In this document: piece after piece, positions 21,479 through 25,040 of the stretch
Position numbering within the stretch: position 1 is the stretch's first letter
Layout of the letters: every line of letters starts with the position of its first letter
Assembly: GCF_003334405.1 (NCBI RefSeq)
Contig: NZ_QOWM01000011.1
Reading direction: 5' to 3' (one strand)
DNA: 64,000 nucleotides
Source of the DNA: Escherichia coli
Lineage (GTDB): Bacteria > Pseudomonadota > Gammaproteobacteria > Enterobacterales > Enterobacteriaceae
Program-made: the position numbers and the translations under genes
The notes under the pieces: generated by a model
What the model was told of the DNA's origin: nothing
The model's input: only the letters and a program-made list of their open reading frames with translations
The model's database searches: none

Positions 21479-22690
21479 TTAACCAAACCAGTGATGGAAC
21501 ATTAATTTAATGTAATCAATGATTTTGCCGAAGAAGTTACCTTCCGGGATTTCTTGCAACACAACCAGCGGGCGTTGCTCGATCGTTTTGCCATCAAGCT
21601 GGAAGTTGATAGTTCCGACGACCTGATTCTTTTGCAGCGGCGCATGCAATTCACTGCTGTTCAGCACATAGCTGGCTTTCAGATCTTTCATGCGACCACG
21701 CGGAATGGTCAGGTACACGTCTTTATCAACCCCTAACGAAGCGCGATCAGAATCACCAAACCAAACCGGTTCAGAGGCGAACTCTTTACCTACTTTCAGT
21801 GGGTTAACGGTTTCAAAGAAACGGAAGCCCCAGGTTAGCAGTTTTTTACTTTCGGCTTCACGGCCTTTAAAAGTACGTCCGCCCATTACCGCAGAAATCA
21901 AGCGCATCTGGCCTTCAGTCGCAGAAGCAACAAGGTTGTAACCTGCTTTGTCAGTGTGTCCGGTTTTGATGCCGTCGACATTCAGGCTGTTATCCCATAA
22001 CAGGCCGTTACGGTTCAGCTGGCGAATACCGTTAAACGTAAATTCTTTTTCTTTATAGATCGAGTATTCATTCGGTACGTCACGGATCAATGCCTGGCCG
22101 ATCAGCGCCATATCTCGCGCGGAGCTGTACTGACCATCAGCATCCAGACCATGTACCGTCTGGAAGTGGGTATTTTTCAGGCCCAGTGCGTTAACGTAGC
22201 TGTTCATCAAGCCAACAAAAGCGTCCTGGCTACCAGCGGCAAAATCGGCCATGGCGACACAAGCATCGTTACCCGATTGCAGGTTAATACCGCGGATCAG
22301 CTGAGAAACCGGAACCTGCATGCCCGGTTTGAGGAACATCAGCGAAGAACCTTTAAACACCGGGTTACCGGTGGCCCATGCGTCGTTGCCGATAGTGACT
22401 AAATCAGTTTCTTTAAATTTACCGGCTTTCATTGCCTGGCCGATAACGTAACTGGTCATCATTTTGGTCAGGCTGGCAGGATCGCGGCGGACATCTGCGT
22501 TCTGTTCGGCGAGCACTTTGCCGGAGTTATAGTCAATCAGGATGTAGGACTCCGCATCGATCTGCGGTACACCCGGGATCATAGTTTTGATATTCAGGTC
22601 ATCGGCATGTGCAGCAGAGATAAAGGCTGTGCAAAGAGCCGTGGTGAGCGCCAGGCGCTTCATGATACGAGCGGAAAAAATGGTATTCAT
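21479..22690 (-). CDS. dacA: D-alanyl-D-alanine carboxypeptidase PBP5
   Basis: ORF 21479..22762; start at [17 protein letters not shown]... (403 aa); SxxK active-site motif SLTK. Confidence 0.9.
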
Positions 22691-22828
22691 GGTCTGAACT
22701 ACGACATCCGTGATGGAATTAAAAAAGTGCCCTACTATAGCAAATGCACTACCGGCAGGCATCTGACTTTCCGCGTGACTTTGTTAACGTCATTTACAGA
22801 AATTGACACATCAGATGCCTGCTTTACG

Positions 22829-23917
22829 CTACTGCGCGGTAGTAATAAATGACTGTAATTGGGCTTCGGTTTGCAAACGTTGCTGCAAGGTACTGGCTTC
22901 GGCTTTGCTGGCGAATGGGCCAAGCTGGATCCGCCAGACCGCGCCATTTTGAGTTACGCGACCGGGGACGCCGAACTTCTGTCCCAGTTGCTGTTGGTAC
23001 TGTTGCGCACGAGCCTGATCGCTTACGGCCCCGACTTGCACCATAAAGTTGCCGCTGGCGCTTTGCGAGACGGCTTGCGGTGTCACCATTGCAGGCGAGG
23101 TTGCAGGCGTTGTCGACGGAGCTGTAACAACGGGCTGTGGCGCAGGCGTCGGTTCGCTGCCTTCCAGTACACCAGGCGCTAAGGTCGTTGGTGCGCCGAG
23201 GAAACCGCTACTGGTTACCGGCGCGCCGGTCGGATCTTCGCTTTTTAGCGTCGAATTACTGACCGGAAGAATGTCACCCTGCGGGCCAGACACTGAACTT
23301 GTTCCCGCGCCACCGCTTAAATCGGGAGGTGCAGGCAGGGCGTAAGTCTGTTTGGCGACTGTGGTACAAGCCATACCAGGACCAGAAAGCGAACCATCCT
23401 GGGCAACAATAATCGGATCGATACGAACTTTGGTGTTGTTTGACGTGTTAAGACGGTCAGCTGCCGCGCGAGAAAGTGAAATAACGCGGTCGTTGCCGTA
23501 AGGGCCGCGATCATTAATGCGCACCACGATCATTCGCCCGTTAGCCAGGTTAGTGATTCTGGCGTAGCTGGGGATCGGAAGCGTTGGATGGGCTGCCGTC
23601 AGCTGTGTCGGATCGAATGCTTCGCCAGAGGCCGTCAGGTTACTGCCGGGTTCGGCATCATAGATTGCCGCCAGTCCCGCCTGGCTAAATCGAGACGGAT
23701 CCTGCACGATTTTGTAGCTTTTACCGTCGCGCTGGTAATCCTGATTTGCCGTCGCGTTCAGTGGTTCGAAACGCGGGTCCGCCCCGCTAATTTCAACTAT
23801 AGGGCCGTTACATACCGCAGGCTGCGGTACACTTACCGTCTGTTGCTGACCATCATCGCTTGTACATGCCGCGAGCATTCCTGCCGCGATGCAGATCCCG
23901 AGCCACTGCTTACGCAT
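22829..23917 (-). CDS. rlpA: Septal lytic transglycosylase / rare lipoprotein A (DPBB and SPOR domains)
   Basis: 362-aa ORF with a lipoprotein signal peptide (LAACTS), a Pro/Thr/Ser-rich linker and a C-terminal SPOR-like domain. Confidence 0.9.
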   Translation of the reverse strand: MRKQWLGICIAAGMLAACTSDDGQQQTVSVPQPAVCNGPIVEISGADPRFEPLNATANQDYQRDGKSYKIVQDPSRFSQAGLAAIYDAEPGSNLTASGEAFDPTQLTAAHPTLPIPSYARITNLANGRMIVVRINDRGPYGNDRVISLSRAAADRLNTSNNTKVRIDPIIVAQDGSLSGPGMACTTVAKQTYALPAPPDLSGGAGTSSVSGPQGDILPVSNSTLKSEDPTGAPVTSSGFLGAPTTLAPGVLEGSEPTPAPQPVVTAPSTTPATSPAMVTPQAVSQSASGNFMVQVGAVSDQARAQQYQQQLGQKFGVPGRVTQNGAVWRIQLGPFASKAEASTLQQRLQTEAQLQSFITTAQ

Positions 23918-23927
23918 TGCGCACCTC

Positions 23928-25040
23928 TTACACGCTTTTCGACAACATTTTCCTGTGGGTGTGGATTGACATTACAATCCCGAACCCAGCCATCAGCACA
24001 ATTAGCGCCGATCCTCCATAACTGACCAGTGGGAGCGGAACCCCTACAACCGGCAGAATACCGCTTACCATACCAATATTTACGAAGACATAAACGAATA
24101 ATATCAGCATTAAGCCGCCAGCCATGACGCGACCAAAGGTGGTTTGCGCTCTGGCGGCTATCCACAGCCCGCGCATGATCAGCAGAATGTAGAGAGCGAG
24201 CAGAATCAGAATGCCCACTAATCCCAGCTCTTCCGCCAGTACCGCGAAGATAAAGTCAGTATGGCGTTCGGGGAGAAATTCAAGCTGTGACTGAGTGCCG
24301 TGCAGCCAGCCTTTGCCGCGTAATCCGCCGGAGCCAATAGCAATTTTAGACTGAATAATGTGATAGCCCGCGCCGAGTGGGTCTGATTCCGGGTCCAGGA
24401 GCATCATTACGCGCTGGCGCTGGTAATCATGCATCAGGAAGAACCACAGAATCGGAATGAACGCCGCTACCAGCACTACTGCGACGCCAATCAGACGCCA
24501 GCTAAGGCCAGAGAGGAACAGTACAAACAGACCGGAAAGCGCAACGAGGATTGATGTTCCCAGGTCAGGCTGTGCAGCCACCAGCAGCGTGGGCATAAAT
24601 ATCAGCACCAGCGCGATGCCAGTGTTCTTCAACGATGGCGGGCAAACGTCGCGGTTGATAAAGCGCGCAACCATCAGTGGTACGGCTATTTTGGCAATTT
24701 CCGACGGCTGAAAACGAACAATACCGAGGTCCAGCCAGCGTTGAGCACCTTTAGAGATGGCACCGAAAGCATCTACCGCCACCAGCAAAATAATACAGAT
24801 GATATAGAGATAGGGGGCCCAGCCTTCATAAACGCGTGGAGGAATTTGCGCCATCACCACCATGATGACCAGACCCATCGCGATTTGGCCGATTTTACGC
24901 TCCATCATGCCAATATCCTGACCGCTGGCGCTCCAGATAACCAGGGCGCTGTAAACCAGCAATGCCAGTAAGATCAGCAGCATTGTGGGATCGAGATGGA
25001 CTTTATCCCAGAATGTTTTTTTATTCGGATTATCCGTCAT
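23928..25040 (-). CDS. mrdB: Peptidoglycan glycosyltransferase RodA (SEDS family)
   Basis: 370-aa polytopic membrane ORF recognised as RodA. Confidence 0.95.

What the first reader, a model, noticed from the sequence alone, without database searches (positions are those of the whole stretch)
23050..23395. Low-complexity Pro/Thr/Ser/Ala-rich linker inside rlpA
The middle of RlpA (about residues 175-290) is a compositionally biased stretch (...PAPQPVVTAPSTTPATSPAMVTPQ...) between the N-terminal lytic-transglycosylase fold and the C-terminal SPOR domain. Such linkers are length-variable between strains and may be O-glycosylation-like or flexible spacers.
Basis: seen in the sequence. Interest (0 to 1): 0.15.

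Follow-up and report, generated by a model that had tools for sequence, protein, structure and literature searches.

The report
Disordered Pro/Thr/Ser linker inside RlpA
The stretch is a real but ordinary flexible tether of about 87 residues joining the two folded domains of the E. coli cell-wall lipoprotein RlpA; its length is almost fixed within E. coli, varies widely between genera, and shows no sign of glycosylation.

Summary
Window 23050-23395 (- strand) encodes residues 175-290 of RlpA. The gene is 100% identical to E. coli K-12 and lies between rodA/mrdB and dacA. This is the most Pro/Thr/Ser-biased stretch in the 64-kb window (z about 6.9).

The boundaries need trimming. Residues 175-196 are conserved, are predicted ordered, and carry Cys184, which co-occurs perfectly with Cys36. 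They belong to the N-terminal fold. The disordered linker is about residues 201-287: two AlphaFold2 runs give low pLDDT and no secondary structure there.

"Length-variable between strains" is not supported within E. coli.
- No complete genome of 5,425 can carry an indel longer than about 17 nt.
- 98 of 100 sampled rows have the canonical length. The two odd rows are one frameshifted pseudogene.
- The one natural in-frame variant (a 4-codon slippage deletion) occurs in 3 genomes.

Between genera the spacer runs from 6 to 213 residues. Amino-acid constraint is relaxed about sevenfold (pN/pS 0.24 against 0.035).

The linker is not uniform. Two islands, [IV]SNSTL and GFLGAPxxLxxGVLExSEP, are conserved across Enterobacteriaceae-like sequences and Tatumella, which hints at a docking motif. 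I found no evidence for O-glycosylation. Overall this is a known kind of feature of low interest.

The parts
22829..23917 (-). rlpA coding sequence (362 aa + stop). It encodes an outer-membrane lipoprotein with lipobox L15-A16-A17-C18.
   Evidence: The ORF is listed. It is 100% identical to E. coli K-12 strains and annotated rlpA in 5,425 of 5,426 complete genomes. NCBIfam equivalog NF007953 scores 616 bits against a cutoff of 201.
23420..23683 (-). [quoted passage not shown]
   Evidence: Pfam PF03330, E = 1.2e-20. PDB sequence match to 4avr. Foldseek match to 4avr with TMt 0.88.
23330..23395 (-). Residues 175-196: a conserved, ordered C-terminal extension of the N-terminal fold. It lies inside the reported interval but is not linker. 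It contains Cys184 (window 23366-23368).
   Evidence: 70% identity to 13 enterobacterial homologues over residues 173-200, against 24-26% in the variable linker. pLDDT is 93/83/73 with strand 185-187. pN = 0 over 173-200 among 7 E. coli alleles. Cys36 and Cys184 are both present in 8 sequences and both absent in 67 of 75 homologues.
23057..23317 (-). Residues 201-287: the actual intrinsically disordered, Pro/Thr/Ser/Ala/Gly-rich linker.
   Evidence: AF2 run 1 gives pLDDT 50-62. AF2 run 2 gives pLDDT below 50 for residues 202-287. Neither run shows DSSP elements there. P+T+S z = 6.9. pN/pS is 0.24 against 0.035 in the domains. Foldseek finds matches only for the DPBB and SPOR parts.
23273..23317 (-). 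Residues 201-215: first hypervariable stretch of the linker (SGGAGTSSVSGPQGD).
   Evidence: 26% identity across homologues, with indels in most genera. It holds 4 of the 13 polymorphic amino-acid sites among 7 E. coli alleles: 206, 207, 210, 211.
23246..23272 (-). Residues 216-224 (ILPVSNSTL): conserved island 1, motif [IV]SNSTL.
   Evidence: 51% identity across homologues. The motif is found in 46 of 180 non-E. coli RlpA sequences or fragments scanned.
23132..23227 (-). Residues 231-262 (GAPVTSSGFLGAPTTLAPGVLEGSEPTPAPQP): conserved island 2, motif GFLGAPxxLxxGVLExSEP.
   Evidence: 53% identity over residues 236-262, close to the 60% of the SPOR domain. GFLGAP-like motifs occur in 46 of 180 sequences, 37 of them followed by GVLE. 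The start-to-start offset from island 1 is 19 residues in 13 of 17 clusters at 50% identity. It is present in Tatumella (P0271) and absent in Xenorhabdus (P0135). It still has low pLDDT and no PDB sequence match.
23060..23131 (-).
   Evidence: 24% identity across homologues and many indels. It has the lowest sequence entropy in the protein (2.69-2.85 bits in 25-residue windows).
23089..23109 (-). 9-nt direct repeat CGCCTGCAA (coding strand) present twice 12 nt apart, at codons 270-277. This is the slippage site that produces the 358-aa allele lacking PATS.
   Evidence: The repeat was found and is visible in the sequence. The allele is P0079. Exactly 3 of 5,425 complete genomes carry it: A30, ET565 and NCTC9064.
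22841..23059 (-). SPOR domain, residues 287-359 (binds denuded glycan strands).
   Evidence: Pfam PF05036, E = 6.6e-17. pLDDT is about 97. Foldseek matches CwlC 1x60 and the P. aeruginosa RlpA SPOR domain 6i09/6i05. The glycan-binding function is taken from PMC6895207.

Best explanation
Residues about 201-287 of E. coli RlpA form an intrinsically disordered, uncharged, Pro/Thr/Ser/Ala/Gly-rich tether. It joins the outer-membrane-anchored DPBB catalytic-type module (residues about 36-196) to the C-terminal SPOR domain (287-362), which binds denuded septal glycan strands.

Inferred mechanism: the SPOR domain docks on peptidoglycan, and the tether lets the DPBB module search a radius of several nanometres around that anchor. 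Polymer scaling for 88 residues gives an rms end-to-end distance of about 7 nm and a contour length of about 32 nm. The tether also bridges the outer-membrane lipid anchor and the wall.

Because it only has to stay unfolded and soluble, most positions are free to change and indels accumulate over long evolutionary times. Within E. coli, however, one length (362 aa) is essentially fixed.

Two short conserved islands (ISNSTL and GFLGAP..L..GVLE.SEP) probably add a docking or regulatory contact on top of the spacer role.

Shown here: the location, the composition, the predicted disorder, the relaxed constraint and the length statistics.
Inferred: the tether mechanics and any binding role of the islands.
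For: - Identity and architecture.
- Composition bias: z = 6.9, the most biased stretch in the window.
- Predicted disorder: two independent AF2 runs with different alignments give low pLDDT and no secondary structure for about residues 201-289, while both flanking modules score above 90.
- Fold search: hits only to DPBB and SPOR structures.
- Relaxed purifying selection: pN/pS 0.24 against 0.035, with equal pS of 0.063 and 0.055.
- Spacer length: 6-213 aa, median 64, with P/T/S/A fractions mostly 0.4-0.7 in 77 family representatives.
- Rare in-frame deletions of 4-51 aa inside the linker occur in singleton database entries.
- No DNA tandem repeats and no Rfam match.
- The literature describes SPOR domains as typically coupled to other parts through disordered low-complexity regions (PMC6895207) and DedD as a disordered region plus SPOR domain by NMR (PMC7642682).
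Against: - Disorder is only predicted. Low pLDDT is a proxy, and no experimental data for this segment were found.
- The two conserved islands are almost as conserved as the SPOR domain. The near-absolute length invariance in 5,425 E. coli genomes also shows that the segment is not a freely drifting spacer on short time-scales.
- For P. aeruginosa RlpA, one paper labels the equivalent inter-domain segment an 'expansin-type domain' (PMC9712689).
- The tether radius and its functional relevance are calculated, not measured.
Confidence: 0.85

Rival explanations
1. The linker is not a passive spacer. Its conserved islands ([IV]SNSTL at 219-224 and GFLGAPxxLxxGVLExSEP at 238-256) would be short linear motifs that fold on binding a periplasmic partner or RlpA's own domain. 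The partner could be a divisome or elongasome protein, a peptidoglycan synthase or hydrolase, or a protease adaptor. This would regulate RlpA's activity or placement. It extends the tether model rather than excluding it.
For: - The islands are 51-53% identical across 13 enterobacterial homologues, against 24-26% for the flanking linker and 60% for SPOR.
- The motifs recur in 46 of 180 non-E. coli sequences. The start-to-start offset between them is 19 residues in 13 of 17 clusters at 50% identity.
- P0130 carries extra GGFLN copies.
- Among 7 E. coli alleles, only 2 of the 9 polymorphic linker sites fall in the 41 residues 216-256.
Against: - No partner is known.
- AF2 gives no intramolecular docking, and pLDDT stays at 30-55 in both runs.
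- No PDB sequence resembles the module.
- The motifs are absent in Xenorhabdus-like and more distant RlpAs, so they cannot be essential to the family's core function.
- The conservation could partly reflect the shallow divergence of the sampled clade.
Confidence: 0.3
2. The Ser/Thr/Pro/Ala-rich stretch is an acceptor region for O-linked glycosylation, a bacterial 'mucin-like' linker.
For: Only the composition. The region has 29 Ser+Thr in 86 residues within Ala/Pro-rich low-complexity sequence. From general knowledge, this resembles the acceptor regions of PglL-type general O-glycosylation systems in Neisseria, Burkholderia and Acinetobacter (reviews listed).
Against: - None of the O-glycoproteome papers listed as top hits mentions RlpA (zero occurrences in those listed). 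A second search found nothing relevant.
- From general knowledge, not tested here, E. coli K-12 encodes no PglL/PilO-type protein O-oligosaccharyltransferase.
- Ser/Thr positions in the tail are not conserved between genera.
Confidence: 0.03
3. The inter-domain segment is a folded 'expansin-type' (domain-2-like) module, as drawn for residues 196-246 of P. aeruginosa RlpA, rather than a disordered linker.
For: - PMC9712689 annotates such a domain in P. aeruginosa RlpA and proposes that the N-terminal 27-81 segment is part of it.
- In E. coli, residues 41-78 and 173-196 are indeed confidently ordered around the DPBB core, and Cys36/Cys184 co-vary.
Against: - The ordered extension ends near residue 196.
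- Residues 201-287 have no predicted secondary structure in two AF2 runs.
- Pfam finds no domain there.
- Foldseek matches only DPBB-type and SPOR structures.
- The segment has only one aromatic residue and is riddled with indels between genera.
- The same paper treats the segment as flexible.
Confidence: 0.04
4. The stretch is a strain-variable (contingency-like) repeat region, or it hides an overlapping element on the opposite strand. Mechanical antisense ORFs exist at 23049..23345 and 22859..23182.
For: - Antisense ORFs of 98 and 107 aa exist mechanically.
- A 9-nt direct repeat 12 nt apart allows slippage.
Against: - TRF finds no tandem array.
- The slippage allele is in only 3 of 5,425 genomes.
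- Length is otherwise invariant.
- Synonymous diversity in the linker (pS 0.063) equals that of the rest of the gene (0.055), so no second layer of constraint is visible.
- No Rfam family matches.
- Stop-poor antisense frames are expected opposite GC-rich Ala/Pro/Thr/Gly codons. The linker GC content is 0.61 against 0.51 for the window.
Confidence: 0.02

Closest known systems
RlpA (rare lipoprotein A / 'endolytic peptidoglycan transglycosylase RlpA') of E. coli K-12 and its P. aeruginosa orthologue
   Same: The sequence is identical to K-12 rlpA. It has the same lipobox, DPBB and SPOR architecture. P. aeruginosa RlpA has the same order of modules, with a shorter inter-domain segment of about 74 residues between LT 102-189 and SPOR 264-342 (PMC9712689).
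   Different: Nothing differs from E. coli RlpA, because this is that gene. Compared with P. aeruginosa, the spacer is longer, at about 114 residues between equivalent boundaries. It also carries the enterobacterial ISNSTL and GFLGAP islands and the Cys36/Cys184 pair, which most homologues lack.
Disordered low-complexity linkers of the other E. coli SPOR proteins (FtsN, DamX, DedD)
   Same: In each, a SPOR domain is joined to the rest of the protein by a disordered, low-complexity periplasmic segment (PMC6895207). DedD's segment was shown to be disordered by NMR (PMC7642682). FtsN's linker contains a short functional motif (PMC9712689 discussion), which parallels the conserved islands seen here.
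   Different: Those proteins are inner-membrane bitopic proteins, and their linkers tie SPOR to a transmembrane helix. RlpA's linker ties SPOR to an outer-membrane-anchored enzyme-like domain. FtsN's linker is Gln-rich rather than Pro/Thr/Ser-rich. The only sequence homology detected to FtsN is in the SPOR domain (TIGR02223 hit covering residues 262-351).
Disordered N-terminal linkers of outer-membrane lipoproteins (El Rayes et al., bioRxiv 10.1101/2021.01.05.425367)
   Same: RlpA is listed there among outer-membrane lipoproteins with a disordered segment. The composition and low AF2 confidence are of the same general kind: residues 19-35 of RlpA also have low pLDDT.
   Different: That work concerns the segment directly after the lipidated Cys and its role in Lol sorting. 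The finding here is an internal inter-domain linker about 180 residues downstream of the lipidated Cys, and nothing suggests a sorting role for it.
Pro/Thr-rich linkers of multi-domain glycoside hydrolases and PglL-type O-glycosylated low-complexity regions
   Same: The Pro/Thr/Ser/Ala-rich composition, the position between a catalytic-type and a carbohydrate-binding domain, and the length variability between species.
   Different: Glycosylation of such linkers needs a dedicated transferase. None is known in E. coli K-12 (general knowledge), and no RlpA glycosylation report was found.

Membership tests
RlpA family (NCBIfam NF007953 equivalog; TIGR00413 subfamily) | Full-length match above the curated cutoff | tested here: met
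   NF007953 scores 615.9 bits against a cutoff of 201, covering 1-362 of 362. TIGR00413 scores 110.6 against 82.15.
RlpA family | DPBB_1 domain followed by a C-terminal SPOR domain | tested here: met
   PF03330 covers residues 79-166 and PF05036 covers 287-359. Both folds were recovered by Foldseek.
RlpA family | Lipoprotein signal peptide with a lipobox Cys | tested here: met
   The sequence reads MRKQWLGICIAAGMLAAC, with L-A-A-C at 15-18. Cys18 is invariant in 75 homologues. No dedicated signal-peptide predictor was run.
RlpA family | Conserved genomic context mrdB(rodA)-rlpA-dacA | tested here: met
   The RefSeq annotation of the homologous locus shows mrdB upstream and dacA downstream. Matching ORFs lie at window 23928..25040 and 21479..22762.
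Intrinsically disordered inter-domain linker | Compositional bias: depleted in aromatic and charged residues, enriched in P/S/T/G/A | tested here: met
   (z = 6.9; 1 aromatic residue in 86).
Intrinsically disordered inter-domain linker | No predicted stable structure | tested here: met
   pLDDT is 50-62 and below 50 for residues 202-287, with no DSSP elements. Experimental disorder is not testable here.
Intrinsically disordered inter-domain linker | Faster amino-acid evolution and indel tolerance relative to the flanking domains | tested here: met
   pN/pS is 0.24 against 0.035. The spacer is 6-213 aa across 77 representatives. Identity is 24-26% in the variable stretches against 60-74% in the domains.
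Strain-variable (length-polymorphic) linker within a species | Common length alleles among strains of one species | tested here: not met
   All 5,425 E. coli genomes are at least 94.8% identical over the full 346 nt. 98 of 100 sampled rows are canonical, and the other two are one frameshifted pseudogene. The PATS-deletion allele is in 3 of 5,425 genomes. No tandem repeat was found.
Substrate of a general bacterial O-glycosylation system | Presence of a protein O-oligosaccharyltransferase (PglL/PilO type) in the genome | not testable with these tools
   Only a 64-kb window is available. General knowledge says K-12 has none.
Substrate of a general bacterial O-glycosylation system | Experimental or published evidence of glycan on the protein | tested here: not met
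   Full-text searches found no paper linking RlpA with O-glycosylation. Absence from the held library is weak evidence.
Expansin-type domain between LT and SPOR (as proposed for P. aeruginosa RlpA) | An ordered beta-rich fold occupying the inter-domain segment | tested here: not met
   For residues 201-287 there is no secondary structure in two AF2 runs, no Pfam hit and no structural match. Residues 173-196 together with 41-78 are ordered and may correspond to part of what that paper drew.

The most novel reading that the evidence does not exclude
The most novel reading not excluded is that the linker carries an undescribed short linear motif specific to Enterobacteriaceae and Erwiniaceae. It consists of two islands: [IV]SNSTL, then GFLGAPxxLxxGVLExSEP starting 19 residues after the start of the first motif in most lineages. 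On binding, it would recruit or regulate a periplasmic partner. This could help explain why E. coli RlpA behaves differently from P. aeruginosa RlpA in activity assays, and why the linker length is frozen within E. coli.
Probability: 0.25. Interest if true: 0.35.

Novelty: already known. Interest (0 to 1): 0.1.

Why it matters
It matters little. RlpA's lipobox, DPBB, unstructured spacer and SPOR architecture is textbook, and the window is plain E. coli K-12 sequence.

This check adds four points:
- Better boundaries: the disordered part is about residues 201-287, and 175-196 belong to the fold.
- A likely Cys36-Cys184 disulfide restricted to an enterobacterial subgroup.
- A quantitative finding that the linker is length-invariant in E. 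coli but ranges from 6 to 213 aa across the family.
- Two conserved islands inside the linker that nobody seems to have discussed. If they bind a partner, they would give a handle on the still unclear role of RlpA in E. coli.

Tried and rejected
- **Tandem-repeat origin of the bias:** TRF at minimum score 30 found nothing. Only one 9-nt direct repeat 12 nt apart exists.
- **RNA element or overlapping feature:** there is no Rfam match at E <= 1 in 22400-24200, and synonymous diversity is normal. The antisense ORFs were rejected as mechanical.
- **The single non-canonical length seen in the spread samples (strain 201609, 343 nt instead of 346; it is the last row of both samples):** it is three separate 1-nt deletions in an annotated frameshifted pseudogene, not an in-frame variant.
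- **Rare database proteins of 311-391 aa:** five have in-frame deletions in the linker. Three others have a 29-aa duplication or deletion in the DPBB domain or a 16-aa deletion in SPOR. Nearly all are singletons on one contig. I therefore did not treat them as evidence for population-level linker variability.
- **A second AF2 run on an enterobacterial-only alignment,** to see whether the conserved islands dock onto a domain: confidence dropped further, to 30-42.
- **PDB sequence search with the 48-residue island segment:** no hit at E <= 10.
- **Literature:** the primary E. coli and P. aeruginosa RlpA papers (PMC2798263, PMC4086221) are not held. The FtsK-RlpA cross-linking paper does not map the contact to any RlpA region.
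- **Not run, because of cost:** the genome contigs or metagenome scans and a second large protein search. The top-120 listing would be swamped by E. coli RlpA, and the question is of low interest.
Full report
**What is at the coordinates.** The interval 23050-23395 lies inside a 362-codon ORF on the minus strand, window 22829..23917. The ORF is 100% identical to rlpA of E. coli K-12 strains such as MC4100, MG1655 and BW25113, and matches in 5,425 of 5,426 complete E. coli genomes. It matches the NCBIfam equivalog for 'endolytic peptidoglycan transglycosylase RlpA' end to end, at 616 bits against a cutoff of 201. Pfam finds DPBB_1 at residues 79-166 and SPOR at 287-359. The neighbours are rodA/mrdB upstream and dacA downstream. 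Position 23395 is the first base of codon 175 and 23050 lies in codon 290. The coordinates and the gene assignment are therefore correct.

**Is the bias real?** Yes. P+T+S+A is 55% in residues 175-290 against 32% in the rest of the mature protein. Aromatic residues are 1.7% against 6.1%, and charged residues 6.9% against 17.5%. I compared residues 201-286 with all 86-residue windows of 44 long non-overlapping ORFs in the same 64 kb. That segment has the highest P+T+S fraction of all: 0.465 against a mean of 0.153 with sd 0.045 (z = 6.9). The best window in any other ORF reaches 0.314. The bias does not come from DNA repeats: TRF finds none.

**Refined anatomy.** The reported interval is not homogeneous.
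- *Residues 175-196* (GSLSGPGMACTTVAKQTYALPA) belong to the folded N-terminal module.
  - Residues 173-200 are 70% identical across 13 enterobacterial homologues, the same level as the DPBB core at 74%.
  - They show no non-synonymous difference among seven E. coli alleles.
  - They have pLDDT 93/83/73 with a beta-strand at 185-187.
  - Cys184 and Cys36 are both present in 8 sequences and both absent in 67 of 75 homologues. That pattern is expected for a disulfide tying the N-terminal extension (residues 36-78, also confidently modelled) to this C-terminal extension.
- *Residues 201-287* are the real linker.
  - AF2 with a broad 75-sequence alignment gives block means of 59, 55, 53, 51, 50, 54, 54, 54 and 62, against 92-98 for most of the flanking domains.
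  - AF2 with a 43-sequence enterobacterial alignment gives pLDDT below 50 for residues 202-287.
  - Neither model has any secondary structure there.
  - Foldseek against the PDB matches only DPBB-type structures (4avr, kiwellin, loosenin) and SPOR structures (CwlC, P. aeruginosa RlpA SPOR, DedD).

**Length variation.**
- *Complete genomes.* All 5,425 genomes match the 346-nt stretch at full coverage with at least 94.8% identity. No genome can therefore carry an indel longer than about 17 nt.
- *Spread samples.* In evenly spread samples of the ranking, 39 of 40 whole-gene rows span exactly 1,089 nt and 59 of 60 linker rows span exactly 346 nt.
- *The one outlier.* Strain 201609 has three separate single-base deletions at CDS nt 540, 672 and 798. 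RefSeq annotates it as a frameshifted pseudogene. It is a defect or an assembly error, not a linker allele.
- *Rare database proteins.* The large protein database holds rare E. coli-like RlpAs of 311-391 aa. Five have in-frame linker deletions of 4, 20, 27, 32 and 51 aa. Three others have a 29-aa duplication or deletion in the DPBB domain or a 16-aa deletion in SPOR. Almost all are singletons, so they say little about natural variation.
- *The one credible natural variant.* This is the 358-aa allele lacking PATS (271-274). It is explained by slippage between two copies of CGCCTGCAA lying 12 nt apart. A query built with that deletion finds it in exactly 3 of 5,425 genomes.

So within E. coli the linker length is essentially fixed, and 'length-variable between strains' is not supported.

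Between genera the picture reverses. I projected domain boundaries onto 77 representatives at 50% identity that have both domains. The spacer equivalent to E. coli residues 173-286 (114 aa) ranges from 6 to 213 aa, with a median of 64. Nearly all are P/T/S/A-rich.

**Selection.** Among seven E. coli alleles chosen across the identity range, pS is similar everywhere: 0.063 in residues 201-286 and 0.055 in the domains. pN is 0.0153 against 0.0019, which gives pN/pS of 0.24 against 0.035. Nine of the 13 polymorphic amino-acid positions fall in residues 201-286, which make up 24% of the protein. The linker is therefore under relaxed, but not absent, purifying selection. The normal synonymous rate argues against any overlapping element. 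The antisense ORFs at 23049..23345 and 22859..23182 are what GC-rich Ala/Pro/Thr/Gly codons give by default, and Rfam finds nothing.

**Conserved islands.** This was the one unexpected detail. Identity to E. coli across 13 homologues is 26% for residues 201-214, 51% for 215-224, 35% for 225-235, 53% for 236-262 and 24% for 263-286. The SPOR domain scores 60%. The islands read [IV]SNSTL and GFLGAPxxLxxGVLExSEP.
- Each motif occurs in 46 of 180 non-E. coli sequences or fragments scanned.
- The start-to-start offset between them is 19 residues in 13 of 17 clusters at 50% identity. It is 20 in Tatumella and longer in two lineages.
- One metagenomic protein (P0130) has extra GGFLN copies in its 213-aa spacer.
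- Xenorhabdus (P0135) and more distant RlpAs lack the islands.
- AF2 does not order them, and no PDB sequence resembles them.

The most economical reading is a lineage-specific short linear motif embedded in the tether. I give this about 0.25-0.3. No partner is known, and the FtsK-RlpA cross-linking study does not map the contact.

**Mechanism.** The best-supported explanation is a flexible tether.
- *Established knowledge.* RlpA is lipid-anchored in the outer membrane. Its SPOR domain binds denuded glycan strands enriched at the septum (PMC6895207). The DPBB module is the lytic-transglycosylase-type domain, active in P. aeruginosa and not shown to be active in E. coli according to PMC7642682.
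- *Inference.* An unfolded, uncharged, Pro-rich segment of about 88 residues has an rms end-to-end distance of about 7 nm and a contour length of about 32 nm. This would let the DPBB module sample wall material around a SPOR anchor point, and would span the distance between the outer-membrane anchor and the wall.

The disorder itself is predicted, not measured.

**Rivals.**
- *O-glycosylation.* This rests on composition alone. I found no literature link, and K-12 is not known to have the transferase (general knowledge).
- *A folded 'expansin-type' domain.* This was proposed for P. aeruginosa RlpA residues 196-246 (PMC9712689). It is not supported for E. coli residues 201-287. The ordered extensions 41-78 and 173-196 may correspond to part of that drawing.
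- *A contingency-type repeat or an antisense gene.* Both are rejected.

**Verdict.** The disordered spacer between DPBB and SPOR holds. Strain-level length variability does not, and O-glycosylation has no support. This is a known feature of a well-known gene. The boundary refinement, the Cys36/Cys184 covariation and the two conserved islands are modest additions. Interest is low.

Noticed in passing
window 23810-23812 (Cys36) and 23366-23368 (Cys184): Cys36 and Cys184 are the only cysteines of mature RlpA besides the lipidated Cys18. They co-occur perfectly across 75 homologues: both present in 8 and both absent in 67. This suggests a lineage-restricted disulfide clamping the N- and C-terminal extensions of the DPBB module.
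   Followed up: partly
window 23089-23109: A 9-nt direct repeat (CGCCTGCAA on the coding strand) lies 12 nt apart. It explains a natural 4-codon deletion allele (lacking PATS, 358 aa) carried by only three complete genomes: strains A30, ET565 and NCTC9064.
   Followed up: yes
L001 (NZ_CP048107.1, strain 201609), rlpA at locus 79-1164: rlpA has three separate single-base deletions (CDS nt 540, 672, 798) and is annotated as frameshifted. This may be a long-read assembly error or a genuine pseudogene. It is the only non-canonical length seen in the spread samples.
   Followed up: partly
rlpA residues 49-67 (window about 23717-23773): Among 81 near-identical 362-aa E. coli RlpA entries in the protein database, sites with repeated minor alleles cluster at residues 49-67 (52, 55, 57, 62, 65-67). 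This is an ordered, high-pLDDT part of the protein. The seven RefSeq alleles show no variation there, so the cluster may come from low-quality assemblies.
   Followed up: no
E. coli genome search: One of 5,426 complete genomes has no rlpA match. Eight more matching places than matching records were reported (5,433 against 5,425), and two of the places are on plasmids.
   Followed up: no
P0130 (JGI metagenome, 458 aa): This RlpA homologue has a 213-residue spacer rich in Ser/Asn and extra copies of the GGFLN motif. It is an example of lineage-specific expansion around conserved island 2.
   Followed up: partly
P0274 (MCF1958421.1, 335 aa): This protein is labelled 'RlpA [Escherichia coli]' at NCBI, but it sits in the same 90% cluster as P0140, which is only about 40% identical to K-12 RlpA. 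The likely cause is a contaminated or mislabelled assembly.
   Followed up: no
window 23049..23345 (+) and 22859..23182 (+): Antisense ORFs of 98 and 107 aa lie opposite the linker. They are expected by-products of GC-rich Ala/Pro/Thr/Gly codons. The normal synonymous diversity in rlpA argues against them being genes.
   Followed up: partly
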